Positions 23,020 through 59,720 of a DNA stretch of 64,000 nt are shown in pieces (the first letter of the stretch is position 1; each line of letters begins with the position of its first letter). The stretch comes from Picochlorum sp. SENEW3. Taxonomy: Eukaryota. The DNA is taken from assembly GCA_034226945.1 (NCBI GenBank), contig CP120458.1:186001-250000 (forward strand). The letters are read 5' to 3'. The notes beneath the pieces were generated by a model. It did not search any database and was not told the origin of the DNA. It saw only the letters and a program-made list of their open reading frames with translations. A program made the translations under genes and the position numbers.

Positions 23020-23646
23020 ATGTCCTATACACGTCACGCCGTTGCATTGACCCTTGCTCTCCTGGGTGTATGTGCCGACGCCCGCACGATGGGAATACTC
23101 ACGTATGTTGTCTTGTGTCTCTTGTTTGATGATTCGCTATGTAATCTATCTTATGATCGCATATTGTGCAGGGACGAGACCCTTCCCGGGATGGCTCCCG
23201 GACCCATATTGAGTGAACCTACCTTTGCAGTAAAAAGAAATACGTCTCTGAACGCGACTTCAGCCCAAAGATTCAACCCGCTAAACTTACCGGACTACGC
23301 ACAGTTCGCATTGAATGATAAATCTTATGGGAACTACTGCGGGAGAGACGTCGGTTCGGGAATACCCATCAACGATCTCGACGAATGCTGTGAAGACCAT
23401 GATAGGTGTCATAAGGGCAACTGCTACAGAAATTCAAGAAATTGTAGATGCAACCAAGCTTTCAGGTCCTGCGTCTCCAGAGCGAAGAATTCTTGCAGAT
23501 GGTGGCAATATTTCACTTCATATTGCAGTAATGCCCGTGCCATATATGATTATGCTGATAATGCAAGGAATGGTGCGTGTTACGGTGAGGTGACGAATGG
23601 ATTCTTTTACTTTGTGTGTGGCGGAGAATGGGGCAAAGGCACCTGA
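23020..23646 (+). CDS. Secreted phospholipase A2-like protein; probable in-frame intron 23103..23171
   Basis: Signal peptide, Ca2+-loop YGNYCG, catalytic DLDECCEDHDRCH, Cys-rich. Confidence 0.85.
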   Translation: MSYTRHAVALTLALLGVCADARTMGILTYVVLCLLFDDSLCNLSYDRILCRDETLPGMAPGPILSEPTFAVKRNTSLNATSAQRFNPLNLPDYAQFALNDKSYGNYCGRDVGSGIPINDLDECCEDHDRCHKGNCYRNSRNCRCNQAFRSCVSRAKNSCRWWQYFTSYCSNARAIYDYADNARNGACYGEVTNGFFYFVCGGEWGKGT

Positions 23647-23807
23647 TCTTTTACTATCCAAGGTGGCAAGTAAGTGTTCTATCTGCCTCTGAACAAAGTA
23701 CCACTTGCTCGGAGTGCTGAGGGACAAAGGCAGACCTGCATGCATTAACATATTAGTTCATGAGCGACTAAATTTTACGCTTTTAAACCGTGTACAATAC
23801 ATATTTT

Positions 23808-23913
23808 ATTAATATATAAATTTCATTGAAAAGTGGTAGGGAGAGCATCAGAGCAGAGGCTGATGGACAAGACTATGGAGATGAGTGTGAGCTGCTGTGG
23901 TTTTTTGCACCGG

Positions 23914-23958
<45 letters not shown>

Positions 23959-24750
23959 CTGAGGTGTTGAGCTTGCATTGTCATCATGTCAGCATGAATT
24001 CTCTCGTTACTATTAAACATAGAGTTGCATTCAAGAAAGAAGAATACTAAATGAAGAGGCCCTCGTGTGGCGTAAATGATTGTCCTGTAGCGTTGCATAT
24101 ACACTGGCAGACATTTTGTTGCATGTAGTGGCCTCCTGTTTGACCGCTACGTGATGTCAACTACGAGTGGTCTTTCATTACTTTATCTTATGATCATACC
24201 TAGAATGTAAATATTAGTAGCGTCAAAGCTTGATAATGTACTCCATGTGTCCTCTCTTCTCTGAAAAATGTCAGCCAGACCAAGGCATCTGCAAAATTTC
24301 CAGTGATTCTAGCCTTCCACATGCCATATTTGTGAGAAAATATCAATTTATGTATTCAGAAAATGCCTCTACTACGAATTTGGCATGTTGGTTTTGAAGA
24401 ACTCTGGTCAAAGTTGAATCTGAAGATTTTGGAAATTTTTGGGCAAAATTGGCCGAATAGAACTCTCAATTCATGGTATCGCTTCAAAACTATATAATGG
24501 AGCTATTTTGATTCTCGGGAACATTGCATCCATCGGCCTCCTGATTGGTACGTATCCTGAATGATGGTCTGGCCCTGCTCTGCACTTCATTGCAGTTCTG
24601 GTTTACTGCAGCAGAGAGTCAATTCAGGGGAATCCTCTCGATGAGATTCTTTGCGAAGTATCATGATACTAAAATTACAATGAGAGAGACCAAGTTGCTG
24701 TATGCAACGCTCTCCTCGGGAGTACTGGCCTTGTTTCCGTTCTCATCTAC
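23808..24750. repeat. ~0.95-kb dispersed repeat, copy A (decayed coding/mobile sequence; copy B ~44473..45425)
   Basis: Colinear similarity by eye, e.g. gcagaggctgatggaca, agagttgcattcaagaaagaa, cctgtttgaccgctacg, gaatttggcatgttggtt, ggagtactggcct. Confidence 0.9.
23919..23954. repeat. (TA)18 microsatellite
   Basis: Directly visible. Confidence 0.97.
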
Positions 24751-25795
24751 CTCAAAATTATGACGCGGGGTATCATGAACTCCTTCAGAACACAGTGGGT
24801 TACAATACTGTATTTTGGCAGGTAATTGTCTTATATAAGTGAGATACGAAGATTCAGACGAGCCGTTAATCACCATGCTGGATTCAGATCACGATATACG
24901 TTTGTGCCATAAGATAACTCGTTGATAACCCACTGGGATAGAGAGAAAAGAAAAATATTAGGTGAAGTAACACTGTAGCAGTTTTATCTCGAACAGAACT
25001 GGGGATCCCGAGCAATTGGCAACAACATGATTCATCTAGATAATTAAGAATGTTTCATACATGCTGGCAGAGCAGTAAATCCTTATATTTGCTGAGAAAG
25101 GACCCCCTGGCTGTTGCCAAAAAAAAGTGAAACTCGCAGCATAGTTTGCCACAACAACATGAGTTTGAAAACCTTGTTTCGCAGAAGAACAGGTTTTGAA
25201 GATTATTTTATGTGGTAATTTAGCCAGCTTGAGGATCCTAGAAGGCTTCCATTCGATTCTGGTCCCACTCTCAATTGTTCCTCATCAAATGCTCTTGCTC
25301 CTTCAATTGCAATTGAGAGGTCCCTACACCAGGCGCCGACGGCGACCCACTGAGCCATTCTGTGGTTATATTATATTCAATCAAAAGACGTGACGTGAAC
25401 ACAAAGATGGAAAGGTGCGAATAAATGCATTTAAAGTTGCCAGCGCCTCCCTCCTTCCCATGCCTGGAACTCATCTTCCAAATTTGCAAATTAGTTTGAC
25501 CCCTGGCATGATAGATTGATCAATCTCTCTGGGAAAACGGTTACCCCAGAAGAACGTGCTGTTATTTTAAAGACGGGCTTGGCTTTCCATGGCTTTTTTT
25601 GAGTTGCCACGAAAAAGATTGCTATCCGTCAATATCGAGTTCTGCGACGTAGATCATGTCATGACGTAGAGCAAGTCCATCAACTTGTTACCCATGCTTG
25701 GACCCATATGGGCACGATGTCTGGTGCTGTAACCCACACTAATTAATTGTCTTCGGATAGATATTTATTGTTGGAGAGTTATTACAGGAGAATTA

Positions 25796-28700
25796 CAGTA
25801 GTCCGAAAAAAGATAACCCAAATTCACCGGGAACACCTTCATGAAGTGGAGGTATTTCATTTTTGTGATCACTGAACGCGCCATATCTCCCTACCCAGCG
25901 AGAATTAGACCCTCTAGTCTCTGCCACAGGCCTCTACAGGCTCCAATCTATCCATCCGTCCCTAGAATCGACATTCCATGAGATGTCAACAATCGCATCC
26001 TGTCTGTTTCAGTCAGGCATCACCAGATCTAGTCATCTGTCATTAAGCCGATACATCCATGTATTGATCATTCTTTTATTGATTGATATGGTTTAAAAGT
26101 CAAGATAGACTATCTAGATCGCTCATACATAGTTCTGGAGGTGATTTTCTCCTTGCTGCATTTTCAAAATTCTGGTGACATTTTCAAATGGGATCTGTAA
26201 AGAAACGACGCAGTGAATCTGATTCACGTCGCAAGAATAAACATAAAAAGCGCAATAAATCTGGTAGAGAAAATGAAGGGGTCAAGTATCTCGGGCATGC
26301 TGGGAAAGAAGTGAATGTTGTGTTGGGCAACAACGCTTCGCCGGGAAGCATCCGTATCAACATCCATCAAGATCAGAGGGTTTCAAAGAGCTCAACCGTA
26401 GAGCGAGAAGATAGAAGGAAGAGAGCGAAGGAAAGGGCGAGAAAGAAAAGGAAATACGAGTCTGCAAAGGGACAGGAAAGGCTTCAAAAGAAGGCCATGA
26501 AGAAAGCTCAGAAGAGAATAGAGAAAAGGCGGAGAAAGTATGTCAGACAAACTGGGAATGATGTATCATTGGATGAATTTAAGAGTCTGGAAAAGACCGA
26601 GAAAGAGCAAATGGCCCAAAGGGGGAAACAACAGGTTGACCCCAGCAGTGGGATGGCACCAATATCTGCATATTTTCTCCCCAGAGAACCAGAGGAAGAG
26701 GAAGAAAACACGGCTGCTTCAAGCCAATCAAACGTTGATATCGTTGTTAGAATGTTTAAGCAGTTATTACCAGGTGATCGTGAAGAAAGGACAGAAGATA
26801 CATTGCCTCCTGAGACTCAGTCAGAGGAACATAATAATAGCACTGAGACGAGATTGATGTATCTCCGTCTCGCATATCTGGATCGTCGTAAGGTTAACAA
26901 AATGAGGAAAACTCCAGCAGCAGACTTCATACGAAAGACTGATCTGATTGGACCTGTTTTCATTGAGGGAATGATTGGCCGAAGCATCGCTAAGATTGAC
27001 CAGTCTGAGTTTCTCAAATTGAGTGATTTTGACTTGAGGAAAGCAGGAAGAAATATTGGCCGTATGAAGTTCAAATCTTTGAAAGATTCTTTGATTGACG
27101 CAGAATGGAAAGTTGATGTGAAATATCTGTCAAAGAGAAACAGAAAGGGAGATAACAATGCCTGGACACCCGAGCAAGTCAGGCTGATCATTGACGCTGT
27201 GGAGGGACGAGAAAACTCATTTATGGGAAAAGGTAAGGCACGGAGTTTCAATCAGGCAGCCTCTTATCTAAAGGAAACACTTAAGAAGAAAGAAGGATTT
27301 AACTGGGATACCATCAACAAAGAGAAAGTCAAATATGTTTACAGGAATAAGGATCAACTCCTTTGCCCATCAACCAAGTGCAAGCGAGGTAGACCCACAT
27401 TGCTTTCTTCAGAATGTTTAGAAGCTATTGAAAAATTTGTGCACGAGACGCTCGACGGCAAAATCAGTTACAGACTGAGCTATTACCTTGATCACATGGA
27501 AAGGATTCTTCAAGAATTCAAGGAAGATGAGCTTTTTTATGATGCTTGCAGAAACCCAGACATCTACCTTCGCACCCTCATATACAAAAAAGGAGGGGCT
27601 ACAAGAAAAGTAACAACATATGGAGGCAAAGATTTATCTGACGAGGAGAGACTCTTGAATACTGAGCAAAATTTCCAGCGCCTTGCATTCCTTGTCCAGA
27701 AGTATGGTCTACACAAAAACGACGTGTACAACTTTGATGAAACAGCTGTAAGGTTTCACGAAGATGCAAGTGGCACGGTAATTACACGCAGAGGAAGGAA
27801 AGTAGTCAGAGGGGAAGCTTATGAAGGATCTCTAGATCACAGACTTTGCTGTACATTCATTCCAATGGTCAGCTGTGCTGGTGAGAAATTTGATCCTGCC
27901 GTCATATTCAAGGGAACAAAGATGCAAACAGGAGCTATACCAGGCCATAAAGAAGATTTTAAGACTTGGCAGGAATTATATGATGAGGAAGGGGAAAATG
28001 AGATCTGTTTCATGCAAAACAAAGGCAAGTGGTCCACCAATGATACTATGGTCCAGTGGTTCAAAGAGCATTTCATTCCACGTGTTCATGTGGCAAAATC
28101 AAGGAGAAGATTGCAAGGAGAAATCGTATCTAATAAATATGTCGTTATCCTCGATGGCGTGAGCACCCACTGCCTCTCACAGAAAAGTGGGACGACTTCT
28201 TGGATAACAGAGCTTCAGGGACATGATCCTGATCTGATTTTACTTTGGCTTCCTCCCAACATGACGGGTGATCTACAACCCTTGGATGTCAATTTCAATA
28301 GACCTTTCAAATCCAAATTCAGGCCTATATTGGCAACATTAAAGAAGAAGAGGAGGGATATGGATGAGTCCAACCCACAGGTGGACAATACTTCAAGGGA
28401 AAATTCAGCTGCTTATAAATTGAAGGCTGTCGTGATCGAGGGGATTATAAATGCATACAAAGAAATTCCAGAAACTCAAATTGAAAAAGGATGGACAAAG
28501 GCTGGCAAGTATGTATATGAGGATAATGACAAGCCTCATGATGGTTCTGGCTATTACTCAGCATGGGACACAGACACCCAAAATGATGCTACAACTCAAT
28601 ATGCCGCAGGGACATTGTTTCACCAAGGTATGAGTGGTGGTATATCGGACATTGGGGGGAATTTACGATTCATTCCCAAGGCTGGAAGGAAGAAGAAACA

Positions 28701-29108
28701 GACCACAGAGGAAGAAACAGACCTGGACCCCGAAGATATGGAGGAAAGCGTTGAAGAGACTGAGGCACCCACTCAACAGTTTTCAGAATATGGGACCTCG
28801 GAGTGTCCAGATGAATTTGTTGATGAAGAGACCGCTGAAGATATGATAGTTGACCCCATTTCTGATTGAAGCACTTGGCCTGTGGGTGGTGGGGGGGCCA
28901 TATGGCATCTCATACCCAATGACGGCCCCATATCGACTCGAAATCACTGGAATCGATATAAGATCCCTTTGTATGACTTCTACTAGGTCTACTTCGTTTA
29001 GAAACCTACAATTTGATGCAAATAAACGAATTTTGTGATTTGGGTTATTTCATTTTGGACTACCGGCACCACCAACAAAAAGCGGAGGTATCTTTTTTCG
29101 GACTACTG
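25796..29108 (+). mobile_element. pogo-like (Tc1/mariner superfamily) DNA transposon, 3313 bp
   Basis: Perfect 20-bp TIRs CAGTAGTCCGAAAAAAGATA (25796..25815) and its reverse complement (29089..29108). Left flank TA, right flank CA. Encloses a DDE transposase ORF. Confidence 0.92.
26188..28869 (+). CDS. pogo/CENP-B-like DDD transposase (893 aa)
   Basis: KRGRPTLL linker, VYNFDETAV, PAVIFKG, VVILDGVSTH and LPPNMTGDLQPLDV..NRPFK. Basic N-terminus and acidic tail; ORF uninterrupted. Confidence 0.92.
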   Translation: MGSVKKRRSESDSRRKNKHKKRNKSGRENEGVKYLGHAGKEVNVVLGNNASPGSIRINIHQDQRVSKSSTVEREDRRKRAKERARKKRKYESAKGQERLQKKAMKKAQKRIEKRRRKYVRQTGNDVSLDEFKSLEKTEKEQMAQRGKQQVDPSSGMAPISAYFLPREPEEEEENTAASSQSNVDIVVRMFKQLLPGDREERTEDTLPPETQSEEHNNSTETRLMYLRLAYLDRRKVNKMRKTPAADFIRKTDLIGPVFIEGMIGRSIAKIDQSEFLKLSDFDLRKAGRNIGRMKFKSLKDSLIDAEWKVDVKYLSKRNRKGDNNAWTPEQVRLIIDAVEGRENSFMGKGKARSFNQAASYLKETLKKKEGFNWDTINKEKVKYVYRNKDQLLCPSTKCKRGRPTLLSSECLEAIEKFVHETLDGKISYRLSYYLDHMERILQEFKEDELFYDACRNPDIYLRTLIYKKGGATRKVTTYGGKDLSDEERLLNTEQNFQRLAFLVQKYGLHKNDVYNFDETAVRFHEDASGTVITRRGRKVVRGEAYEGSLDHRLCCTFIPMVSCAGEKFDPAVIFKGTKMQTGAIPGHKEDFKTWQELYDEEGENEICFMQNKGKWSTNDTMVQWFKEHFIPRVHVAKSRRRLQGEIVSNKYVVILDGVSTHCLSQKSGTTSWITELQGHDPDLILLWLPPNMTGDLQPLDVNFNRPFKSKFRPILATLKKKRRDMDESNPQVDNTSRENSAAYKLKAVVIEGIINAYKEIPETQIEKGWTKAGKYVYEDNDKPHDGSGYYSAWDTDTQNDATTQYAAGTLFHQGMSGGISDIGGNLRFIPKAGRKKKQTTEEETDLDPEDMEESVEETEAPTQQFSEYGTSECPDEFVDEETAEDMIVDPISD

Positions 29109-29270
29109 CATATTTTCTCGAATTTACTATTTTTGCGTCGTCTCGATGAGATATTATATCTACCGCAGTAGCAGCAGAAACCCTATTGGCTAGGTCGCCG
29201 ACGCCTTCAAGACGAATTAAGTGTTTGGCCGCATATTTTATACATTGTTACACAGCTGAACTGGTATTGG

Positions 29271-30865
29271 ATGGAGGATTCCAGCGAAGGGGGAACAATG
29301 AAGGAGTACGAGGGGACGAGCTCTCAAAACTACCATACAGTGCCCGGAATGGCTAGCATGCAGCACGGAGCAACCATGTACGCTAATGCCGGTCCTTATC
29401 AAATACATCCATATATGTATTATGTAAATTGTGTACCATACCCACCATGGTACGCATCAGAGTATCAGGGGTCGCTGCTGGAAGATCACAATGCCAGTCA
29501 TACAGTGCTATTGCCAGTGGCGGTGATCAAGAGAAGGGTGCACGATCTATAAAATGTCGACCAACGAGGTCTTCAAAATCTATTATTGGCGCTCCGAATC
29601 TCTTGAGAAGTGAGAAGTCAGCTATTTCATCGATTATTGGCCTCTCTATTCCAGATAAAGAGTTTCAAATGCGTGAGCAGGAATTTCAGATGCCTCTGCA
29701 TGAGTCACTATCTATGGAGGCGGCCCATTATAAATTTATTTCTTTGGAAATATATAAGAAGGGCAGTGAAGATATCAGTAGTGTGGCGTTGAATGGCGAT
29801 GTTAGAAAGTTGGACCGTGATGTGGTGCGACGACTGGCATTTCACCAGGAAGGGTCCAAGGCACTGCAGAGAATGATCCTATCGCATGTCAAGGTACATG
29901 AACTATCAGAAATATGTCGATCATCTCAAGGGACGGAACCTACACCACCAAGAGATGAATCACAGCAGTTTATTAATCAGATGTATGATGCCCTATCCAA
30001 AGATATTGTGAACTTATGCCTGGACATGTACGGCAATTATACAGTGCAGTGTTTGCTGATGCATGCATCTCCTACTGTTGTAGCAAGCCTAGGAGACATG
30101 ATAGTGACACACGTTGTGCCACTCTCTTTGAACTTTTATGGTTGCAGAGTGGTCCAGTGTGCCATGGAACATCTGCCCATGGAGTATAGATCTAAAATGT
30201 GTGACGCCTTAGAACCACTTGCATTACACTGCCTTCAAAGTCAGAATGCCAATCATGTGATTGATGGTCTTCTGACGTTACCTTGGAGAGACAGACCAGC
30301 TCATGCAGTGCAAATACATGCGTCCATATGTCGCCATGCCCCTCTCTTGGCGACGCATAAGTACGGAGTAACCGTATTAGACACTGCATTGGAGTCTGAT
30401 ATTGCTAAGAATGTATCGAAAGAAGCCACCCAGCGTCTCCTTCAGATATTGGGTGACCTAATCTATGACGAGTTTGGGAATTATCTGATCCAGAATTTGA
30501 TACAATCGAATCTATACGGGACCCGTCGTGCTGTACATGAATTTCTGTTGCATTGTCCTCTGTTGACACTGTCCTGCGATAAATTCGGCTCAAATGTCTT
30601 TGAAACTTCTCTTTCGAACAGTACACAAAAACAGATTGATGCAGTAATCACCACATTCCTTCAGCAATGTCAGGCTGCAGGGCAGATCGATGAGGTAGTA
30701 GCCAATGTATCTATGGATAGATATGGAAACTATATCGTTCAGAAGATGCTGGCGATGTCATCATTTAGACGTCAGATGTTGTCCAGCCACCTGGCACCAC
30801 ATAGTGCCATGCTGATGGAAAGCAAGCATGGTAGGCACACTGCCAAGCAACTCCTCGAAATGTGA
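29271..30865 (+). CDS. Pumilio/PUF RNA-binding protein (8 repeats); 5' end ambiguous
   Basis: Repeats HQEGSKALQ, DMYGNYTVQ, NFYGCRVVQ, SQNANHVID, HKYGVTVLD, DEFGNYLIQ, DKFGSNVFE, DRYGNYIVQ. Confidence 0.88.
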
Positions 30866-30904
30866 TCCACCAGACTAACATCCTTGTTGCACAATGGTGT
30901 TTTC

Positions 30905-30975
30905 TCATTGAATGAATCTGTTTTCTTCTTATGTAATATGACGACAATAGTAGTAATAAAGGAAAAAGGGAGGGA
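30905..30975 (+). repeat. 71-bp direct repeat, copy 2
   Basis: Matches 18301..18371 at 70/71. Confidence 0.95.
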
Positions 30976-31041
30976 AAGGACAATTAGGAAGTAAGAAGAA
31001 GAATGCAACGGTGGTTTGTGAGTTGATCGAAATCCAAAGCC

Positions 31042-33106
31042 ATGACGACACTGAGTCTTGCAGCTGCTGGCACTGCGGTGGCCTTGTACTACTACTCAAA
31101 TAGTAGAGATGGTAGACAAGAAGAGTTTGAGACGCATGCGAATGCGTACAGAGCACCAAAGTCGTTTTTTGAAGATTTGTATTTTTTCGCAGAGGCGTTA
31201 CGGTATGGATTCGATTCTTCTTCATTCTTCTTCTGAATGTCGTCTGACAAGTCATTCATGACTATGATGTAGGTATATGTATGGCGAGACTCTGTATAAA
31301 TGGAAAACGGCAGACTTGTTGTTGGGTCTGTACTATCTGTGTAGCAGGACACCAGAGGTGCATCCTTTGGAGGATATTGGTCGACATGGGTCTGTGTTTG
31401 GGGTTGGGATAGAGGATCCAGGTGCGAAGCAAAAGGCTCGGATGGAGTTGCAGGCGATTGAGCGGTGTTTTGTGTACAATAGTTGTCTTCGGGAGAGGAG
31501 ACCAATTTATCGGAGGAGGAGGATCCTCGAGGTGATGGGGATTCGGGAGGAGGACTTTTTAAAGCAAGCTGTGAGTGCGGGGATATTGAAGCCGTCGTAT
31601 GTGTTGGTAAAGGATGAGGAGATGAAAGCCATTATTCTTGCGATTCGAGGAACGCATTCTGTCAAGGATGCATTCACATCATTGACTGGGGCATCCAAGC
31701 CTCATCATGTGGTTGATTCTAATGGTGTTACCCTGGGATATTCTCATTTTGGTATGCTTGCTGCGGCGCGATGGATGAAATCAGAAGTTGGAGAGGATTT
31801 TAGACATGCACTGGAAACCAATCCAGAGTATCGTCCTCTTGTGATTGGTCACAGTCTGGGTGGAGGGACGGCAGCCATGTTGACGATGATGTTACGGGAA
31901 CAGGGTGGCGTGTTTATGGATGCCACGTGTATATCTATAGCATGCCCGGCGTGTATGACGTTGGAATTGGCTGAGAGCTGCAAGGATTATGTGACAACAA
32001 TAGTGAATGGCTGCGATATCATTCCCACGATATGTGCAGGGTCTGCTGATATATTGCGAGAAGAAGTCACGCAGAGCTCGTGGTATGCTGACTTCAAGAC
32101 AGATATGCGGTCATCACGAATATTTAGGGCTTTTGAGAGTGGTATTCGGGGGGTTGGGACTGCAACGTCATGGACTGCCATTCGGTTGAGTGCGTGTTAT
32201 ACAAGAAGAAAGGAGGGTCATCATAAGAGGCGAAAGGTAGAATCTGATGACCATAGCAATGGATCAGCATCTGTTAGTGGTAGCAGTGCAAATGCGTTTA
32301 GAAGGCGTAAGATTGATGAGAATAGTCGTGATGATAGAAGATTGAAAGGTGGGAATAGCTGGTGGGTGTTACCTCGGTATTTGTCAAATACTGCGTCATA
32401 CGTCATGTCGTCTTTGGGAAAGAAAGAAGATTCCTCAATACATGAGAAACAAGGGGCTGACGATCGAATAGATTTGGAAGAGTCACGCGCCATTGACGAT
32501 CTGACACAGGAAGACGGGCACGACAGTCTGTCTGCAGAGGCAAATTTTCGAATGAGGGCAGTGAAGGATGCGGTTCACGATGCTGAGATTGAGGAAATGG
32601 AGCATGAGAAGCATGCCAGTGCCCATGAGGATGCCGTGCCCTCTATTATTCGGCCCGGGGCATATGGGAATGTTTCTCCCAGCAAGAAGAATTTGGGATG
32701 GAAGAGATCAATGTATCCTGCTGGCAGAATCATGCATTTTGTTCCAGCATCTGTGGTGCCTGGGTATGAGAATGCGTTTGACGATTCAAATGATGATGAA
32801 TTGAATGGGTGCGTGTTCGAGGACTCATCACATTCGAGAAGGGTCTCAGAGTTGAGCTTTGATGATTTTCTGGGAGTTGATGAAGCACTGGGAGCCAGGT
32901 CATCACTCGAAGCCAGGTCACTGCAGGAGCCATTGCCACAACTAAAACCTGCTCCAGGTCCAGCACCGAAGAACATGGTATTGCTTGATCACATTCCTCA
33001 ATCGTTATATGGACGGATTCGCCTCTCGTCCTCTATTTTGTCAGACCATGTGATCCCAAATTATCTGCGGTCGTTGGAATCTTTCAAACAGAATTTTGAT
33101 ATTTAA
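31042..33106 (+). CDS. Lipase class 3 (DAG-lipase-like); intron 31203..31272
   Basis: Motifs LAIRGTHS, YSHFGMLAAARW, GHSLGGG and MYPAGRIMH. Exons join in phase. Confidence 0.9.
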
Positions 33107-33221
33107 ATACGATTCATTTACAATGATCAGTTGTTTGATTTTATACTCTTAGTAATAAATATTAAAACAGAGCATTATGTCTACATATCTCGTGATCCAA
33201 AGATGTGGCTGCCCTCTGGCT

Positions 33222-36200: not shown

Positions 36201-38615
36201 TCTTAGAAGGAAGGGGCGCAACACTGAATGAAGACGGTGGACAATCGCCTTGTTGTACTCTGCAGATCCCTCAACCATTCCTGTCAATGGATTTGAGAAC
36301 CAATCTTTGAATTGGGCATGAGATGCGAACACTTGAGGCATCAAAAAGTGCATCAGGGACCATAACTCCATTAAATCATTTTGCAGAGGTGTACCAGTGA
36401 TGAGAAGCCGTCTCTTGGAGTTGAAATTCAGCAGTGTTTGCCACCTCTGGGATTTCCAATTCTTGATCATATGCGCTTCATCTAGAATCAAATACTTCCA
36501 TTTCTTGCGACGAAACATCCTAGCGTCCTGAAGGATCAGAGTATACGAGGTAATGCACACATGAAAGGCATTAGGTTTGGACCAGCCCTGTCTCTTTGCT
36601 GCCCTTTCCTTTGGAGTTCCGTAATATGTCAGCAATTTGAATGCTGGACACCATCTCTTAAACTCCATTTCCCAATTGAGCATGACCGAGGTTGGAACTA
36701 CGATTAAATGAGGGCCCCAATCTCCACGTTCACATGCAAGCCAGGACAAGAGGGCAATGGTTTGGATCGTTTTCCCTAAACCCATCTCATCTGCCAAGAT
36801 GCCATTCAGATGCTTGTGATATAATGTGACCAACCAGTCTAATCCAATATGCTGATATTCTCTCAACTCTCCCTTCAGCAAGAACGGAATTGGCGTCTTT
36901 ACATTTGCTGTCGCAAGAGTGTAACCAGTTGGCTGGGCAGCAGCCATTGCCTCTAGAGCACCAGACATGCCTGTGTTTTCCTTCTCATCCTCTGCATTCT
37001 GTACGCTTGTTTCTAGACCTTTAATATCCTGTCTGTCATTGTATGTCTGTGGTCGATATCCTTTATATTTGGCCAGCAGCTCCTCCAATGGCAAGTCAGC
37101 ATCCTCTTTTAAACCAGCTGCCTCTTCTGCTTGCAACTGGGTAAAGCTCTTTCCGCTCTCTGCCAATGCCATCCTTTCTTCCTCTTCTAACGTTTCTTCA
37201 TCATCTGCATCATCATCCTCGCCTGACCGATACTCATCCTCTTCCAAGTCCACAACAATATTGTCTTTTGTAAGCATTTCTAAATCGCTTTCCTGATTCA
37301 GATCCAAATTTTCACTCATCTGGTCCTCACTGTTGTGTAACTCTGGCTTGTAACCTTTGTACCGTGCCAACAAATCTTCCAAAGGAAGATGGGCATCATC
37401 TTCAAGGCCTGCTCTTTCTTCTGCATGCACCTGAGCAATATCTTTACCACTCTCAGCCAAAGCCAGTTGCTCCTCCTCCTCTAGAGTTCTTTCGTCATCA
37501 GCATCATCGTCCTCATCGCTTTTATATTCATCCTCATCCATGGGATCTACTGCATCTTGTACGTCTATATCGGGCAACTCACTAAATTCTTCAGCTAGTC
37601 TTCTACCTCCATTTCTAGAGGATACTAAGGGTGCTGACGACTGTCGAGACGGCCCAGCTTGATCAGAAAGTTTTGCACGCTCCACAGGATATCCATATCG
37701 CTCCAGCAATTTCTCCAGGGGAAGCTCGGCATCCGCTGCCAAACCAACATTCTCATCCATCTGCTCTTGACGAAACTTTTCACCAAACTCAGCTGCAGCC
37801 ATCCTCTCTTCTTCTTCCAGGGTAGCCTCATCATCGGCATCATCATCCTCACCACTCCGATAGTCCATACCATCATCCTCGTCCATGTACTCGTTCTCTG
37901 AGAGACCATCCTCACCAGTGACACCACCACCAGCAGTCGTACCTTGTGACACATCTTCAACCTGGCCTGCCATGCCATTCTCTCCCCTCAACCTCTCTGC
38001 CAACAAGATGCTATATTTATGAGTCTGCTTCAACAGCACATCCATCTGTTTATCCAACACTTGCTTCTTCCTAGCATCAATCTCATTCTTCACCTTGAAT
38101 GCAACCACTTTGTGTGCCTTGTTCCATAAAGCCATCACCTCCTTTGCAATCCACGCAGCCCTCTTCCTCAAGTTCTTTTCCTCCTCCTTCTCCCGAAGAA
38201 CATTGCGACTCTCTACATCCATATTCGACCTCTGTGCACTCCCAGCAAGCCTCTTCGCACTCTGTATCTTCCACCGCCTCTCCTTTTGAAATTCCTTCGC
38301 CAACCATGACATTTCCTGAAGCATATTATCCCAATGCGTCTTACCCCTCTTTGGCTCTGGAGCTGCAGGAAGCCTCATCTTTGACACCTCCTGCTTGATC
38401 CTCTCAGCTCTCCGCAACACCTTATCCTCCTCCTCCATTTCCCGTTGCAGATGATACTGCAATTCTTCAATCGTCCATTTCTTCTGGATCACCGCATCAC
38501 CCTGGCTCTCATCAAAACCACCATCTTCTTGCTTAATGTCCACCACCTCCTCCTCCTCTTCCTTCTTCAGTGCCTTGACACTCGAGGACTCTGGACCACG
38601 TCGCCTCGCACCCAT
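33222..38615 (-). CDS. PIE1: SWR1/PIE1 SNF2-family chromatin remodeller; intron 34173..34265
   Basis: HSA domain (KTHWDNMLQEMSWLAKEF), NGILADEMGLGKT, LILDEAH, split ATPase with insertion, [23 protein letters not shown] and a SANT-like C-terminal exon. Confidence 0.95.
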
Positions 38616-39129
38616 CTATAACCCCTATAAATATGTTAATATGAAAATAGGGTACTCCCAAGCCCCTCTCCAAGCGCATCCAAGGAATGCTGCCGAATTC
38701 TTTTGAATGGTACGAATCCCAGTCAGAGCACCTGCTATTGGTGTATAGAGCCCTTTTTAAGTGGCAGTACTGTACCATATACTAATATAAATACCAATCT
38801 GCATGCACAGAAGGAGCGTCGTCATCATTAGTCGTAGAATCATTTGGACAACCAGTTCCATGCCAGTCTCTGGCCCAACCATCCAATCAATCATACCTGG
38901 TAGTCCCATATAGCGTATATAAATATCTCCGATACTGAGACTGTGCCACACATGCAACCTTATAGGCCACCCAGTCTGCAGTCGAGATCTGCAGATCTCT
39001 GATTAGATCTTTATAAAGATCTCTCGAGAGACGAGCTCGTCTCAACCAGAAGAATTTAACCCATTGATGGTTCATGATCAGGGCAGCGCAGAGGTTGGTT
39101 TTATTTATCTGTCTACTACTAAAGATTTC

Positions 39130-39909
39130 ATGGATGGAATTATGTTTCAATCAGTTCGAGGAGTACCGACAAGGACAGTGGCGAGAGCAGTGGTATCGTT
39201 GAATAAAACTCATACCCAGCAAAGACCCTTCAGTGACCATCCTTTTCGCCTTGGCATTGGACATTTGAATAGAAAGACGACACCTGATCTATCTGTGATG
39301 GCATCAAAGGCTGATGATGTGAAAGGAGAGATGTTGGAGCCAAGTGTTGCGAACAAGCCACTTGTACGCTTTGCTGCTTTGGCTGCCATTGTTGCTGCCT
39401 CGGCCAAGGCCACTGGGTTTCTTACGGTGAAATCGATTGGGTTTATTCATATGATGGCATTTGGGGCGTGGTTTGGGACCTTGGTGTGGACGTCTTTCAT
39501 CTTTGGTCTGGTGGCCTTCAAGACTCTTGCAAGGCAGACATTTGGCAAGCTTCAGTCCAAGCTATTCCCCAAGTATTTTGCTCTTACTGGGGCAGCTCCT
39601 GGGTTGATGCTGGCGACGTTGCATTACTTGGCTGGTGGGGCTCCTCCAGTGACTGAAGTGAGGTTGCTGGCTATATCTGTGGCATGTGCTGTTGCCAACC
39701 TCTTGGTGGCCGAGCCTGCTGCGACATCGGTGATGTTTGAGCGGTATGCTTTGGAGAATGCAGAGGGTGAGAGGGATGAAGGTCGTATTGCGGCGCTGAA
39801 GAAGATGTTTGGAAAATGGCATGGGATTAGTTCTCTGTTGAATTTGGTGGTGTTGGTGTGTGCAGTGGGGCATGCATATTATCTTGGTGGACAGTTATCC
39901 TTTATGTAA
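39130..39909 (+). CDS. DUF4149/TMEM205-family membrane protein
   Basis: Motifs W..FIFGLVAFKTLARQTFGKLQSKLFPKYF and FGKWHGISSLLNL. Confidence 0.85.
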   Translation: MDGIMFQSVRGVPTRTVARAVVSLNKTHTQQRPFSDHPFRLGIGHLNRKTTPDLSVMASKADDVKGEMLEPSVANKPLVRFAALAAIVAASAKATGFLTVKSIGFIHMMAFGAWFGTLVWTSFIFGLVAFKTLARQTFGKLQSKLFPKYFALTGAAPGLMLATLHYLAGGAPPVTEVRLLAISVACAVANLLVAEPAATSVMFERYALENAEGERDEGRIAALKKMFGKWHGISSLLNLVVLVCAVGHAYYLGGQLSFM

Positions 39910-39910
39910 T

Positions 39911-40867
39911 TCAATTTAATGATTCATTCGATTGGCCTGGAGATACCTCCATGATGAGGCCCCATGCGAGAGATACAGGGCTTCGAGTATCTGCTTGAAT
40001 GACAGCTTGCATTGGGGGGCTTTGTAAAAATGACTCGACTGCACTGGAATCCTGTGGGAAGCGAGCTATGAATATTGTATCGCATCTGAATTGATCATCG
40101 CAAGAAATGCATTCTTTTTCTTTTTCTGGCTGGAGCGTATGATTTATAACGCTCAACACTGGCCCATGGGCTGCTTGGACTGCCCCAAAGGCAGACGATG
40201 ATGCCAGCCCCTCTGTCAACCTCAGAAATTCCTCTACATCATCCGTTGATCCATCTGCAGATCGATCAAGTCCTAGTATCAATTCATATCCCTCCTCCCA
40301 CTCGGCGCCTCGCCTAAATATTGATTCCAATTCATTTGGAATAGATGTCATGAATGTCACTGTGGCCACCCCCGCACTCGTCTTCTCCTTTGCCACGTCA
40401 TCCAGCATGTATTTTGTTTTCAGATGATTCAAAAAGTCTTGCATACTCTTCTCGGATGCATATCGGAACAGGATACAGTTGTTAAATTGCTCCAGGCTGG
40501 TTGCTTTGTGTGACTGTGTACCAGATGGGACAAGGCCAGTTATGACTGGGCCTGCTGATCCACACACAGGGCCCCGCACCATGTACTGGAGTGACCAGCA
40601 TGTGTCAATAACCTCTGATATTTGTTCATCATCCAGATCCGGTGTGAGAGAAAACACTGTTAGAGATTCTGCTACCTGGCATGTGTCTGCCGATGCAACA
40701 ACTCTTCCCCTCTTTCTTCCTGTCTCTGTGGCTATGGACTCCATATTGTTTATTTTTGTTGATATAGAGTCGTAATAATGCCTTGGTCCGCTGATCTGAC
40801 TGTTCCTCTGACATGTCGCTGCGCGAGAAGGAAACAATTGGAAGATCGTTCCGATTTGTGAGGCCAT
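39911..40867 (-). CDS. Stress-responsive A/B barrel (Dabb)-like protein, probably plastid-targeted
   Basis: Transit-like N-terminus, then two alpha/beta repeats (TVFSLTPDLDDEQISEVIDTCWSL; ILFRYASEKSMQDFLNH). Family assignment is from pattern only. Confidence 0.55.
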   Translation of the reverse strand: MASQIGTIFQLFPSRAATCQRNSQISGPRHYYDSISTKINNMESIATETGRKRGRVVASADTCQVAESLTVFSLTPDLDDEQISEVIDTCWSLQYMVRGPVCGSAGPVITGLVPSGTQSHKATSLEQFNNCILFRYASEKSMQDFLNHLKTKYMLDDVAKEKTSAGVATVTFMTSIPNELESIFRRGAEWEEGYELILGLDRSADGSTDDVEEFLRLTEGLASSSAFGAVQAAHGPVLSVINHTLQPEKEKECISCDDQFRCDTIFIARFPQDSSAVESFLQSPPMQAVIQADTRSPVSLAWGLIMEVSPGQSNESLN

Positions 40868-43189
40868 TGGCACACACTGGCTATGATTTCCTCCGTTTCT
40901 TACTTATTGAATCCACAATAGTCAATGTACTACAACTGTTTTGATAATATGGGGCTGGTTGCGTTTGATTTGACTGTCTTCTCCAGACCATATTTTAGGA
41001 CAGACTCGGGGTACATTCAAACGTATGACATCTGCGATGAACTTTTTTGTTCGATTGATAGCATGTCGAATTTCATTGGAGCCATGTATTGCTTGGGCAG
41101 GTATTCTTGAAGAAATGGGCCTTCTCCAATCGTCAGAAGGCCAGGTGGGATGCTTTCAGATTTAGGACCAGTCATCAGGGTGGAACCATTCCATCCACTG
41201 TCTTAAATGGCGATTGGTCCCACAGGCCGATTGAGTAGCTCCAGGATCATTGGAGGTACGAAAAGATTGCCATGGTTCCATCAAAGATTTTGCGATGTAC
41301 AGATTATACTCTGTAGAATGTGGCGAAAGATGCTGATAGGTTTCTCCCATCGTCCGGGTCTGTGATGGGAAGGTAGAATATATCCCTAAATGACATGCCT
41401 CTGATTTGACCACGGGTTCAAAATACTTATGTTGAATCGATTCCATATGGATCAGCATGCTGACTGCGCAGTCTAACTTAAGACCGACGAACTTTTTTAA
41501 ATATGTAAGAAATCTCGAATCGACCCCGGTTGGTCCTAATTAGGACCACCAGGTTGGCAAACCGTGGATCCAGGTACAAAAGGTGCTCCAGATCCGGAGC
41601 CTACATACATAAATCGCATAGCCCCCAATGGACTGCACCATTTCCATATATTCTCTACATGGGTGCTCTTCTGGCTACCAAATATAATGGATGAAAATGG
41701 GCAAAATTTGCGTCGCTGGAATTGTTTGTTCGACCCAGGGGGTTTCTGAGGTATGGAAGAGGCCTTAAATAAGACCATCAAGAGGCTCGACCAGGAAAAC
41801 GTCCTTTCGCACCTCGTGACCGTTCAATAGCGACTTCAATGCTTTGGAATGTCCACCTTCGAATTGAATTTGTCAACCGATGCTTCTCCAGCAGTGCTCA
41901 TGATTATTCGTGCTGGACGGATTCCCGAATGCCCGTACCGTGTGTTGCAGAGTGGGTCAGTCTTTTTGTGTATTGATTGACCATTAATGGAGCTACAGGA
42001 AAGGAGAAGGGACATTAGACTGTCCATGACTGTCGTCTGAGATGTATATGACGTCGTCCTCTTCATAGCTCGCGTTCAAAGGATGATCTACCCCATGCTC
42101 AAGATAAAAAAGGAGGTATCTCCACTGTGCAAGTGTGTCCTCCTTGTGTGGCACGTCTTCTGGCTCTTAGAGTTCCAACAGTACTTTGGATTTGATTCCC
42201 TGTCGTGATTGAATCTGTACCCCTTCGTATAGGTCGTTCTGTCCTGTAGTTCACAGTAAAGTCTCCATCCTCCTCTCATTTGGAGTTCCACATGACCAGT
42301 CTTACAATATCAAACACCACTATGAAAAGGCTACATCTTTTAGCATAAACATTCCAAGTATCAAACAGTCACTGGAACGTCTCTCTGTAAAGTGTCATCT
42401 GGTCAACTCATCACATCATAGCAGCACGTTGACTCTCCTGTCACAGGTGGTGTTCAGTCAACCCTTGAGGTCAAGGTCGACTATCGCGAATATTAGTAGC
42501 AATATCTTCCTCGTCTTTGAGTCTATCAGTAGGTCTTTAGGAAAAAACATTTTGTTATTTCATCTTCTTGTCATTTCGTCCACCAGAAGAAGCCACAGTT
42601 CAACTTGGTACAATCAGAAATTCGTCCAAATCACCGCATTTCCACCTTCCGCCAGTCCCCGCGAGACGAGTTTTGGACCATTCGACGCAGAACAGGCTTC
42701 TTAGTCGAATTAGGCCCTCGGAATTAATTAGGCAGGCACAGGCCCGGCAGGCGGCGAATTAGGCCACAGTGCAGATTCGGGATATAAGGAGCCCCAATAA
42801 GACCATGTAGAGAATCGACCAGGAAGCATCATGATGATCATCTTTCGCACCTTTCGTAACTCTTCCAATAGAAATTTTGATATCCTGGAATATTCGAGAA
42901 CAAAGGTGCTGCTCCCGCTGTGCTGAATGTCACTGTTATTCATACTGCATGGTTTGCCGGTAATGCCTGTCCACTCGTACCGTGAAATTTGTGGTCCATA
43001 TCAATAGTGCAAATTGGTTGCCGTCCACAGGAGCGTTTGACCCTGGAAGGTCATCCAGATGCTACAAGATGTCCGCTTCACACACAAAATATAACAAATG
43101 TATGGTTGAAAATAGTCTTCGTCATATGTTTCGACTGTATATTATATTAATCCGCCTACCGAAAACATACATCTCCAGAAGGTGTAGTA

Positions 43190-44119
43190 ATGCATTGTAC
43201 AACCGTCGTCTGTATTTGGCTAGTTTTCCAGACTACCAAGGCTTTGTACACTGATGCCCGCAGACAAACAGACAAGCATGGTGACGTCACCAATCTGCCC
43301 ATAAATAAAATGAATCGGAATACGTCAACATCAAAAAACTTGTTACAAGACGGTGCTTGTGCAATTGTGGACGCATTCGAGCAATTTACTCAACAATGCA
43401 CATGGGGCCAAAACTGTGGCGGAGGATGCGCCCAGTACGCAGATTCTGGCATTGAAAAATGGAATGACCCACTGGACAAGGCATGCTTGGATCATGATAT
43501 TTGTCTTTGCAATGCAAAAACGGTTGCACAGAAAAGATATTGCGACAGAACACTTGCTGATGCTGCACGAGAAATATTCGAAAAAAATGATAAATGCACA
43601 GGATGGAATGTTTTGAATCCATTTTGCTGGGAAGACCCCATCGTGTGTGCCGCTCAAAACATCGTCATTGCAATGGAGGCATTTGGAGGCTCTGGGGATG
43701 ATTTGAATAGCAATTGTTATAATAATCGGAGCCCACAGCCAGAACCACGCCCCGAATCACAGCCTGACCCAAATTTGCAATCTTGCCTGGCAAAGTTCAA
43801 AGGAGGGTGCATGTTTGATGAAGATGCAGGGATCGAAACTTCAAATTGTGGAATAGATTGCTCAACAATGTCATACAGGGATGGTGAATACTATGGTTAT
43901 GTGAAGGACGAGTCGAGCAACATATACCCTCCAAGCAGGGCAGACCGTTGTTGCTGGGAGCATAAGGTATATCTTCACCAGCAAAATGTTTTGGATGGCT
44001 CTAAACAAGCTTGTGAGTCTTATAATCAAATGCTTCGTTGTATGATTTCAAAGCAGTCGTCTTGGGGACAGGCAATGACACGAGAAATAATGGCTTGCCT
44101 CGGTTGTCAAGGAACACAG

Positions 44120-44180
<61 letters not shown>

Positions 44181-44452
44181 CACAACGAGAAAGATGCGAC
44201 TATGAATATTTGAAAGAGTGGGCTCCAGTATGGGGAAATATTTGGGGTAAGAAGTACAAGAAAGTATCCTCTCTGTCAACCTGTGCAAAGCTCTGTTGTG
44301 ATAGTCCAACGTGTAATACATTTGATTGGACTAAAAAGAAGAAAAGAGGTGACAGCTATTGTTATCTTTTCAGATATTCGTGGTCAGAGTTGCCCAAGAG
44401 GAGGAAGAAAGGGAATCGATACGGAACGACTTATGTCGGATATCTAGTATAG
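43190..44452 (+). CDS. Secreted multidomain PLA2-like protein: PLA2 + degenerate PLA2 + (PE)10 linker + PAN/apple-like domain
   Basis: WGQNCGGG..DPLDKACLDHDICLC; second domain SNCG..ADRCCWEHK; C-terminal SLSTCAKLCCDSPTCNTFDW..CYL. Confidence 0.75.
44120..44182 (+). repeat. (CCAGAG)10 coding tandem repeat (Pro-Glu linker)
   Basis: Directly visible. Confidence 0.97.
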
Positions 44453-44472
44453 GTGAAATTTATGCATAGTTA

Positions 44473-45425
44473 ATTTATATATAAATTTTATCGAAAAAAT
44501 GGCAGGGAGGGCATCAAAGCAGAGGCTGATGGACAGGTCTGTGGAGATGAGTGTGAGCCAGTATGGTTGACTTTTCTGCTCTGGGTGATGTATCAGCTGA
44601 GGTGTTCAGCATGCATTGTTCTCATATCAGCATGGATTTCTCTCGTTACTAAGCGTAGAGTTGCATTCAAGAAAGAAGAGTAAGTAGTAAATGAAAAGAC
44701 GCTCGTGTGGCGTACATGATTGTTCTATGGCGTTGCACATGCATTGGCAGACATGTTGTTGCATCTATAGCGGTCTCCTGTTTGACCGCTACGTTATGGT
44801 TGCCAACTATGAGTGATCTCTCATTATTTTAGCCTATGATCATACCTGGAATGTAAATATCAGTAGCGACAAAACTCCATAATGTACTCTATGTTTCCTC
44901 TCTTGTGCTCAGGAAAAGTGCCAGTCAGAGCAAGGCATCTGCAACCTTTCCAGTGATTCTTCTAGCCTCCCTCATGCCATATTTGTGAGCAAAGATTAAT
45001 TTATGTATTCAGAAAGACTGAAATAATAAATAGAAAATACCTCTTGACGACGAATTTGGCATGTTGGTTCTGAGGAACTGTGCTCAAAGTTGCGTAAAAG
45101 TTTTGGAAACTTTTGAGCAAGACTGTCCGCATTGAATTCCCATTGCATAGTACTGTTGAAATATTATATAATAGCGCTTTTTTCTTCTTGGAGAACATTC
45201 ATTGGCCTCTTGATGAACGTGAGTCCTGAATGATGGCCAGGCCCTGTTCTGCACGTTCTTGCAGGTCTGGATTCCTGCAGTAGAGAGTCCATGCAGGAGA
45301 TTCAATCCCATGTGATTCGCCGCAATGCGTCATGATAATAACGTTTGAATGGCAGGGACCAGTTTGCTGCATGGCTGATGCAATCCTCTCCTCAGGAGTA
45401 CTGGCCTGGGTACCGTCCTCAACAG
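44473..45425. repeat. ~0.95-kb dispersed repeat, copy B
   Basis: Same orientation as, and colinear with, 23808..24750. Confidence 0.9.
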
Positions 45426-59093: not shown

Positions 59094-59720
59094 TTACTCT
59101 GCTGCTGTAGTCTCAGCAGCCTCACGTAAGGTTGGTGATCCTTTGAATGCATTATTTTCCTGACTTCCCCACTCGATCAGCGACACTTCATCATCACAAC
59201 ACCCTTCAACGTCTAGAATGGAATCCTGGGATTCTTCTCGTGCCAATGCAATACCAGATGAAGCCAAAATAGATAATGGTGGCAGATCCAATTCAGCTGT
59301 GTCACATGCAATGTGCTCCTCTACCACTGTGCTGTTTGCTTCAGTAGCGTCTTTGTCGACCGGATCACAAACCTCACTGATTGGTGCACTAGTATCGCCC
59401 TTGTCTGCACGAATATCATTCAACACATCACTGAGGTGTGCTTCAAAAGACTCCTTCTAGCCTGGGGAGCCTACAATCTCCACAACCTCTCCAGCAAAGA
59501 AAGCGAAGGAAAGTCATTAATGACTAACAAACGCCCACTACATCACCGAAAGCACGCACCATGCACCTGACAGCTCCTGTTCTATCTGAGAGCTTTGACC
59601 AGCAGCACATACTGCCCACCTTCAAACGTGGACATCTTTCATCTACCCAAGGTGTGCTCAGCAGATTTGAGGGGCTCGATTCCCTTGAAAGAGCCTTTAC
59701 TCATCCTCACCACTAAAATG
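59094..59720 (-). pseudogene. Decayed coding fragment of unknown origin
   Basis: Acidic protein-like frame 59094..59426 continues upstream and downstream through stops. Confidence 0.35.

What the first reader, a model, noticed from the sequence alone, without database searches (positions are those of the whole stretch)
23020..45425. Recurrent module: diverged secreted PLA2 gene tail-to-tail with the same decayed element, one copy fused to the recombinase
Seen: 23808..24750 and 44473..45425 are colinear homologues about 20.7 kb apart. Each starts just after the stop of a + strand PLA2-like gene (about 160 bp and 20 bp). The repeat keeps matching minus-strand peptide remnants (ASTPEE; AEQG..IIQD; KLIF.HKYGM..AR.ITG..ADAL). 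In copy B it is continuous in frame with the YR C-terminus. The two PLA2 proteins share only motifs (signal-DAR, RNTS, NCG, LD..C..HD.C) and differ in architecture, so they look more diverged than the flanking DNA. Inference: a mobile unit carrying or capturing variable secreted PLA2 effectors (toxin, defence or membrane-entry role), possibly with YR-mediated cargo exchange. I know of no described algal system like this.
Basis: partly seen in the sequence, partly recalled or inferred. Interest (0 to 1): 0.8.

Follow-up and report, generated by a model that had tools for sequence, protein, structure and literature searches.

The report
Algal transposon carrying swappable surface genes
The repeat next to two phospholipase genes is the tail of a jumping element in a small green alga that combines virus-derived replication and recombination genes with ordinary transposon ends and seems to carry a different secreted or cell-surface gene in each copy, phospholipases being only two of them.

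Summary
The repeat is real (74% over 1,007 columns) but not PLA2-specific and not fused to anything. It is the 3' end of a tyrosine recombinase (YR) gene plus its non-coding 3' region, found at 10 loci; only 2 of 10 neighbours are PLA2. Long copies read: left end, spliced ORF, PolA-like TVpol/D5 helicase, Cre-fold YR of virophage/giant-virus type, a variable convergent gene, right end (6-10 kb, no capsid gene). The ends are asymmetric, shared with a 212-bp mini-element and flanked by 8-bp target duplications, the same pattern as this genome's KDZ transposons. In 4 of 10 loci, including copy B (right end at 41748), the right end lies beyond the neighbouring gene, so that gene is cargo; one unit on C3 has a perfect duplication and an empty site. 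Cargo is mostly secreted or membrane-anchored (PLA2, fn3 protein, methyltransferases). Copy A is an old stump with no ends found. Best reading: a KDZ-ended composite element with a virophage-derived core and a variable cargo slot, inserted by a transposase acting in trans. Which enzyme moves it is untested.

The parts
41748..41804 (-). Right terminus of the element that contains copy B (subterminal palindrome, ends in CATACCTC)
   Evidence: Exact match to the family's right end, G000:C6:227748-227762; profile score 33.3 bits
41951..42805 (.). Unrelated repeat lodged between two right-end-like sequences
   Evidence: 84% to G000:C6:579678-580522 and further copies; joins at the centre of the end palindrome
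42796..42870 (-). Degenerate inner copy of the right subterminal sequence, about 320 bp upstream of the PLA2-B start
   Evidence: 26 of 30 bases match 41768-41797, E 7e-4; weak
43190..44452 (+). PLA2-B, 420 aa: N-terminal hydrophobic leader, PLA2-like domain with His-Asp, second Cys-rich domain with HK in place of HD, PE repeat, PAN-like domain; occupies the cargo slot
   Evidence: 63% to a PLA2/RNase T2 fusion on C3 with no element within 5 kb
44462..45198 (-). Copy B: conserved non-coding region 3' of the YR, ending in an AT-rich palindrome
   Evidence: 83-91% to six other copies, 81% to A; gaps not in threes
45199..46401 (-). Copy B: tyrosine recombinase gene, interrupted by one stop at 45862-45864; element truncated just upstream
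   Evidence: 91% aa to the uninterrupted C3 copy, 1 TGA; Cre-like fold of the C3 copy
46491..47036 (+). Unknown ORF abutting the truncation; a decayed paralogue lies just inside the right end of the C1 copy
   Evidence: no Pfam hit
23020..23646 (+). PLA2-A, secreted-type PLA2 with probable 69-bp in-frame intron (23103-23171); in the cargo position of copy A but no enclosing end found
   Evidence: PF00068 E 1.6e-4; PDB sPLA2 hits from E 3e-6; Atlas top hits plant PLA2, 0.85-0.87, lead only; intron read from the sequence
23797..24530 (-). Copy A: non-coding 3' region with a (TA)n expansion at 23914-23957
24531..24745 (-). Copy A: decayed last ~70 codons of the YR, with stops and frameshifts; nothing further upstream
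   Evidence: 50% over residues 358-415; frames
58957..59669 (-). Fragment of the element's first, spliced ORF, same orientation as copy B, 12.5 kb away beyond housekeeping genes

Best explanation
A family of 6-10 kb composite DNA elements. SHOWN: order left end (CATACAGAGAAG...) - spliced ORF of unknown function - TVpol (PolA fold) fused to a D5-type SF3 helicase - divergently transcribed YR - about 550-750 bp non-coding 3' region - one variable convergent gene - right end (...CTTCCATACCTC); 8-bp target duplications; a 212-bp mini-element with the same ends; purifying selection on the YR; at least one unit (C3, 5,993 bp, with a captured gene fragment) inserted in one step. INFERRED: the TVpol-helicase and YR came from a virophage or polinton-like virus and were captured between KDZ (Zisupton-like) ends; a KDZ DDE transposase encoded elsewhere (or now lost) does the insertion; TVpol-helicase copies an excised form and the YR resolves or excises it at the terminal palindromes, which is why both stay under selection; cargo is picked up when a left end pairs with a right end lying beyond a neighbouring gene, or by exchange between copies. 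PLA2-B is such cargo; PLA2-A is probably former cargo or a neighbour of an old stump.
For: Architecture in C2 (whole), C6:737k, C3 and C6:753k. TVpol-helicase: VIA-align Z 13.2 (rmsd 4.2, 280 aligned) to pol theta and 12.2 to Klenow for residues 12-350, Z 28.3 (rmsd 5.7, 403 aligned) to vaccinia D5 (model of homologue P0166, 88% to the C2 protein). YR: R, K, R, Y invariant in 31 homologues; Foldseek best hits Cre (E 5e-5) and giant-virus proteins (E 2.5e-10); 6 of 13 IMG/VR loci with a YR relative also carry an ORF matching the TVpol-helicase profile and 4 carry virophage capsid Pfams. dN/dS 0.14-0.32 in all 15 pairs of 6 YR copies. Duplications of 7-8 of 8 bases at 9 of 12 short copies, 8 of 8 at C3 with an empty-site duplicate, 6 of 8 (3-nt offset) at C2. 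Three KDZ-type families with defined ends all end in CTC, two start with CA, and 6 of 6 copies have 7-8 of 8 duplications. 4 of 10 long-element right ends lie under 3 kb beyond the YR 3' region in the right orientation; chance 3e-10 if uniform, 1.5e-3 if all 22 ends are crowded into 0.6 Mb. A metagenome contig has a left-end-like motif joined to a 79%-identical YR (L131).
Against: No KDZ gene was found between these particular ends, and the three KDZ families with defined ends have different end sequences; trans-activity is assumed. Only C3 has a perfect duplication around a cargo-bearing unit, and its cargo is a truncated ORF. Copy B and C1 lack a left end, so their duplication cannot be tested; 6 of 10 loci, including copy A, show no right end beyond the neighbour (one search scanned all six). 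No fully intact copy: the C2 TVpol has one stop, C6:737k has a deletion, C3 and C6:753k lack TVpol. No two copies share the same cargo, so no cargo gene is shown at two insertion sites. Most copies sit in repeat-rich regions where ends and surface genes are both common.
Confidence: 0.55

Rival explanations
1. Same core element, but no real cargo system: the neighbours are resident lineage-specific genes in variable islands; right ends near them are leftovers of separate short insertions, and only the C3 unit moved once with a bystander fragment.
For: 6 of 10 loci have no right end; 12 short elements and several orphan ends are scattered in the same regions; PLA2-A is flanked by fragments of other repeats on both sides; intergenic gaps in this compact genome are short, so tail-to-tail closeness is cheap; a further repeat lies between PLA2-B and its outer right end.
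Against: On C1, C2 and C3 the only family-type right end of the whole contig lies within 3 kb beyond the YR 3' region, correctly oriented; C2 has a 6-of-8 duplication around the whole 9,857-bp unit.
Confidence: 0.2
2. The YR is the transposase, Starship- or Crypton-like: it excises and integrates the element and the mini-element through the terminal palindromes and swaps cassettes there.
For: The YR is the only recombinase found between these ends; three uninterrupted YR frames exist while mini-elements up to 100% identical show recent movement; each end holds an inverted pair around an AT-rich spacer; foreign DNA is joined at the centre of that palindrome at two places, window 42795 and C6:580512.
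Against: Duplications of unrelated 8-mers imply a staggered cut with no target homology, which is DDE chemistry and not known YR chemistry (established knowledge); end grammar matches the resident KDZ families; the two palindrome junctions involve one repeat and may be its own target preference.
Confidence: 0.17
3. One reading: a PLA2-specific effector module.
For: 2 of the 3 PLA2-like genes found in G000 (searches are insensitive) sit in this slot, 20 kb apart and in the same orientation.
Against: 8 of 10 slots hold other genes, three of them methyltransferases; the third PLA2-like gene has no element near it.
Confidence: 0.05
4. Old local segmental duplication of a PLA2 gene plus a dead element.
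For: Same contig, same orientation; A is marginally closer to B (81.1%) than to other copies (76.6-79.8%).
Against: B is 88-91% identical to copies on other contigs; A is a long separate branch (basal support 82, unrooted); PLA2s are 27% alike while the repeat is 74%; no other shared flank.
Confidence: 0.03

Closest known systems
KDZ (Kyakuja-Dileera-Zisupton) DNA transposons
   Same: 8-bp target duplications (PMC11343200, passages seen); large elements with extra ORFs that the authors liken to cargo; same end grammar as the KDZ families of this genome.
   Different: No KDZ transposase inside; carries TVpol-helicase and YR instead; ends are short, asymmetric, with subterminal palindromes.
Polinton-like viruses and virophages with TVpol-S3H and an OLV11-like YR (PgVV, Organic Lake group; PMC4642659, passages seen)
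   Same: Same two enzymes; structural neighbours of the YR include an Aureococcus anophagefferens virus protein and a Qinghai Lake virophage protein; the pair co-occurs in virophage contigs.
   Different: No capsid or packaging genes between the ends; 6-10 kb rather than 15-30 kb; 8-bp duplications; host-type cargo. OLV11 itself was not compared directly.
Transpovirons and Tlr1 (PMC5499653, passages seen)
   Same: About 7 kb, capsid-less, derived from PLV-like ancestors by gene loss.
   Different: Those encode an SF1 helicase fused to an inactive pDNAP and end in inverted repeats; this has TVpol-SF3 plus YR.
Starships (PMC11162782, passages seen)
   Same: Eukaryotic element with a YR and variable cargo.
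   Different: YR has no DUF3435 hit, is internal rather than first, element is far smaller, and flanks are random 8-bp duplications.
Cryptons and the composite MarCry-1_FO (PMC3212892, passages seen)
   Same: YR-encoding DNA element; MarCry is a precedent for a YR element enclosed by the ends of a DDE transposon. The left end read backwards ends in TATGG, as CryptonS termini do.
   Different: Cryptons have fixed 4-6 bp terminal direct repeats and, in those passages, no helicase; here the right end lacks the TATGG repeat and true duplications flank the element.

Membership tests
KDZ transposon | 8-bp target site duplication | tested here: met
   9 of 12 short copies 7-8 of 8; C3 8 of 8 with empty site; C2 6 of 8
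KDZ transposon | KDZ transposase (PF18758) with CxC domain inside the element | tested here: not met
   No such hit in the element's ORFs; KDZ genes lie elsewhere with other ends
KDZ transposon | Terminal or subterminal inverted repeats | tested here: met
   About 21-bp subterminal inverted repeat, 8-9 bp inside each end
KDZ transposon | Mobilised by a KDZ transposase | not testable with these tools
   Inferred from end grammar only
Polinton-like virus / virophage | [quoted passage not shown] | tested here: not met
   The C2 copy has both ends and its ORFs are accounted for without these genes; the genome-wide searches were empty but inconclusive
Polinton-like virus / virophage | TVpol-S3H replicase | tested here: met
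   PolA fold Z 13.2 plus D5 helicase Z 28.3; PDB profile hits E 1e-31
Polinton-like virus / virophage | OLV11-like YR | tested here: inconclusive
   Viral structural neighbours and virophage contigs; OLV11 not aligned directly
Tyrosine recombinase superfamily | R-K-(H)-R-(H/W)-Y catalytic set and Cre/Int fold | tested here: met
   R178, K215, R299, Y334 invariant in 31 sequences, RH motif before the Tyr in most; first His replaced; Foldseek Cre E 5e-5; no Pfam or PDB sequence hit
Starship | DUF3435 captain YR as first gene | tested here: not met
   No DUF3435 hit in 31 members; YR is the third gene
Starship | Variable cargo inside the element's ends | tested here: met
   4 loci with 4 different genes; perfect duplication only at C3
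Crypton | Fixed 4-6 bp terminal direct repeats, no TSD, YR as sole enzyme | tested here: not met
   Variable 8-bp duplications and a replicase gene
Transpoviron | SF1 helicase fused to inactive pDNAP; linear with TIRs; packaged by a giant virus | tested here: not met
   Helicase is SF3 with PolA domain; packaging not testable
Secreted PLA2 | His-Asp dyad and calcium loop (YGxxCG) | tested here: met
   A: YGNYCG and CCEDHDRC; B first domain: WGQNCG and CLDHDIC; A aligns to solved sPLA2; B has motif evidence only
Secreted PLA2 | Calcium-dependent sn-2 hydrolysis and secretion | not testable with these tools
   No assay; leader peptides judged by eye

The most novel reading that the evidence does not exclude
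A capsid-less, virophage-derived, self-replicating element in green algae whose own tyrosine recombinase acts on the terminal palindromes to excise it and swap gene cassettes, shuttling cell-surface and secreted genes (three of them with a TA/GA slippage tract right after the membrane anchor, as in bacterial phase variation) and so varying the alga's surface against giant viruses: an algal counterpart of Starships built from different parts.
Probability: 0.15. Interest if true: 0.88.

Novelty: new variant of a known kind. Interest (0 to 1): 0.62.

Why it matters
Cargo-carrying elements in eukaryotes are known mainly from fungi (Starships). This one would show a second route, in a streamlined alga: viral replication and recombination genes captured between DDE-type ends, moving surface and secreted genes. 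It has short defined ends, a mini-element, uninterrupted YR frames and resident KDZ transposases, so 'which enzyme moves it' is directly testable. I found no description in nine literature searches; 'Picochlorum' with 'tyrosine recombinase' gave 0 papers. The library lacks most subscription journals and Repbase was not available, so absence from print is not shown.

Tried and rejected
Pfam, PHROGs and PDB sequence searches did not recognise the YR; a phage-collection tblastn was empty; only the fold search did. Crypton-type TATGG direct repeats: present at the left end only, rejected. Replitron or Helitron-type ends (PMC10288648, PMC3627910, passages seen): no HUH gene, fixed 8-bp duplications, rejected. 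A second coding ORF 3' of the YR: rejected. Right end near copy A or five other copies: none above noise. An autonomous KDZ with these ends: not found in 18 KDZ matches or their fetched flanks; ends of one KDZ family stayed undefined. Capsid and A32 searches in G000: empty, with no or one positive control, so inconclusive. Left-end motif in viral contigs: 5 hits, all without further similarity, chance. TVpol in viral contigs by word search: none. ESM Atlas for the first ORF: no usable hit. Reads (4 of 24 runs, contigs only): runs X10 and X22 cover both flanks and the YR repeat but not 42863-44311, X5 covers part of PLA2-B thinly; no contig bridges the gap, so this is not evidence of an empty site, and expression could not be judged. 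The joint 41764-46592 in X1 is best explained by the C1 copy, not excision. Parent genes for cargo: C3 fragment and C1 methyltransferase are single-copy; the C2 fn3 gene has 8 distant paralogous matches at 33-57%; no recent source copy. A 6-of-7 likeness between the window's right flank and the C6:753k left flank is within chance. In the tree the leaf named LINE is mislabelled: its neighbour is a 218-aa unknown ORF next to a LINE-like insertion. Supplements of the Picochlorum genome paper (repeat table S4) and of PMC11633385 (table S6, viral regions in Picochlorum genomes) were not seen and may list these repeats.
Full report
Setting. The window is G000:C6:186001-250000 of a 13.85-Mb, 14-contig genome. 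The closest named homologues of its proteins are from Picochlorum, so it is a compact trebouxiophyte alga.

1. Observation. Self-BLAST finds 23797-24745 against 44462-45421 at 74% over 1,007 columns. Both follow the stop of a PLA2-like gene. PLA2-A (208 aa, probable 69-bp intron) has the calcium-loop and His-Asp motifs, a sub-threshold PF00068 hit and PDB sPLA2 hits from E 3e-6. PLA2-B (420 aa) has one motif-complete domain, a second Cys-rich domain without the Asp, a PE repeat and a weak PAN hit. They share 27% over 112 aa. B's only database relatives (2 of 67 candidates) are PLA2/RNase T2 fusions, matching a paralogue on C3 (63%, dS saturated) that has no element within 5 kb.

2. What the repeat is. 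It matches 10 loci (13 pieces); the YR protein adds 2 more; counts are lower bounds. It consists of the last ~70 YR codons and the region 3' of the stop. There is no fusion: three uninterrupted copies end the same way. The 3' region is non-coding. Neighbours at the 10 loci: PLA2 twice, methyltransferases three times (PF13578, PF08241, PF05050), an fn3 protein, an unknown membrane-anchored protein, a truncated membrane-anchored ORF, an unknown 218-aa ORF, and at C11 a non-convergent secreted-type gene. Nine of 10 are convergent; the eight measured stops lie 10-151 bp from the repeat.

3. The whole element. On C2 the repeat extends 7 kb: a spliced ORF of unknown function (conserved in frame), an 850-codon gene with one stop, and the YR. 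A model of homologue P0166 (pLDDT 83.8) has a PolA fold at the N-terminus (Z 13.2) and a D5 SF3 helicase behind it (Z 28.3): the TVpol-S3H fusion described for Sputnik and some PLVs (PMC4642659, passages). The YR has no Pfam hit, but R, K, R and Y are invariant in 31 homologues, its model (pLDDT 84.4) matches Cre and, better, giant-virus proteins. Of 13 IMG/VR loci with a YR relative, 6 have an ORF matching the TVpol-helicase profile (all 87 ORFs of 200 aa or more); 4 show virophage capsid Pfams (39 of the 87 ORFs, from 11 loci). dN/dS among six YR copies is 0.14-0.32.

4. The ends. Four long copies and two stubs begin sharply at CATACAGAGAAG (25 hits, control 1). Eleven 212-bp copies and one 52-bp copy share this end and reveal the other one, CTTCCATACCTC, with a subterminal inverted repeat. 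Nine of these 12 have 7-8 of 8 bases duplicated, two with three extra bases. The genome's KDZ transposons (PF18758 confirmed for two families; two more by 42-60% identity) behave alike: 6 of 6 copies have 7-8 of 8 duplications, all three families with defined ends finish in CTC and two begin with CA. 8-bp duplications are the KDZ signature (PMC11343200, passages). None of these families has our end sequences.

5. Cargo. One search gave 27 hits (control 10): 12 belong to short copies, 8 to longer units, 7 look like chance; two more degenerate ends came. Of these 10 long-unit right ends, 4 lie within 3 kb beyond the YR 3' region and past the neighbouring gene: window 41748 (PLA2-B), C2 (fn3), C1 (methyltransferase), C3 (truncated ORF). 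On C1, C2 and C3 they are the only family-type right ends. Chance is 3e-10 under a uniform model and 1.5e-3 under a crowded one. The C3 unit (5,993 bp) has an 8-of-8 duplication and a nearby duplicate of the host DNA shows the empty site. The C2 unit (9,857 bp) has 6 of 8. Against this: B and C1 have lost their left ends; six loci, including A, show no right end; no cargo recurs; another repeat lies between PLA2-B and its outer end.

6. Copies A and B. B is a truncated member with one stop in its YR; a piece of the first ORF lies 12.5 kb further on. A is among the oldest copies, a long branch and not B's sister, set among fragments of other repeats and a DDE_1 element. Their closeness is not a duplication. 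Two PLA2s among ten slots is more than a random draw from all genes would give, but fits a bias toward secreted and surface genes; this is inference.

7. Mechanism. Shown: anatomy, ends, duplications, selection, one unit insertion. Inferred: insertion by a KDZ transposase in trans; copying of an excised form by TVpol-helicase; resolution or excision by the YR; cargo capture by pairing of distant ends. The rival, a YR that does everything, explains why the YR is the only recombinase inside the ends and why foreign DNA joins at the palindrome centre twice, but not random 8-bp duplications. MarCry-1_FO is a precedent for a YR element inside DDE ends (PMC3212892, passage).

8. Novelty. Each part is known; I did not find the combination described. 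Passages of a Picochlorum genome paper (PMC11092101) report 4.99% TEs and repeat-rich arms, with 0 occurrences of 'recombinase'. PMC11633385 (passages) reports D5 primase-helicase and other viral markers in a Picochlorum genome and correlates the genus with giant viruses, a virophage and PLVs. Verdict: PLA2 module not supported; a new variant of cargo-bearing composite element is; interest 0.62.

Noticed in passing
G000:C3:554674, C4:1172919, C6:665616 (L147-L149): The pattern TATATATATAGAGAGAGA occurs at 5 places genome-wide (6 matches); 3 are inside the genes in the element's slot, in frame just after the predicted membrane anchor (YIYIYRER); the other two look intronic or intergenic. A degenerate form is in the C1 methyltransferase. 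Could be frameshift switches.
   Followed up: partly
G000:C3:152174-153769 (L039:3675-5270, minus): Secreted-type PLA2 domain fused through a PE repeat to RNase T2 (E 2e-14); also in another Picochlorum (P0213).
   Followed up: partly
window 56144-56566 and 59764-60183: 423-bp direct duplication (94.6%) flanking a weak sulfotransferase-like membrane gene (57097-58134, E 1e-3) and the fragment of the element's first ORF; C3 has a similar 930-bp duplication around its element.
   Followed up: partly
window 25791-29106: DDE_1 (pogo-like, name recalled) transposase ORF 26179-28869, E 1.6e-13, with a 90% copy on C4.
   Followed up: partly
window 18374-22548: Stack of fragments of several multi-copy elements upstream of PLA2-A; ORF 20581-21735 belongs to one of them.
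   Followed up: partly
G000:C6:540000-843000 and C4:968000-1186000: Repeat-dense regions with KDZ, Pif1-helicase, SWIM/RNaseH-like and RT-like elements interleaved with methyltransferase and glycosyltransferase genes; 20 of 25 left-end hits are on C6. Recalls the virus-resistance outlier chromosomes of prasinophytes (recalled, untested).
   Followed up: partly
G000:C4:984810-984870 and C6:579219: One KDZ copy sits next to an inverted repeat of its own target duplication and a head-to-head right end; another inserted exactly at the left edge of a 212-bp element.
   Followed up: no
G000:C2:1164188-1165429: The C2 YR is a mosaic: N-terminal half like the C6:741k subfamily, C-terminal half like the C3 subfamily, so copies recombine.
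   Followed up: partly
G000:C6:563180, 567878, 602370, 622570, 770863, 77450: Solo 12-14 bp left-end stubs, one flanked by a 12-bp duplication; possible footprints of aborted or one-ended events.
   Followed up: no
G000:C6:616293-618581 (L036): An FkbM methyltransferase gene lies between the tail of one copy and the head of the next, followed by a 52-bp element made of the two ends only.
   Followed up: partly
L132:3269-6573: In a metagenome contig the YR start abuts two membrane-anchored genes, one weakly sulfotransferase-like.
   Followed up: no
G000:C6:24174-27854: Long tandem array with a period near 99 bp.
   Followed up: no
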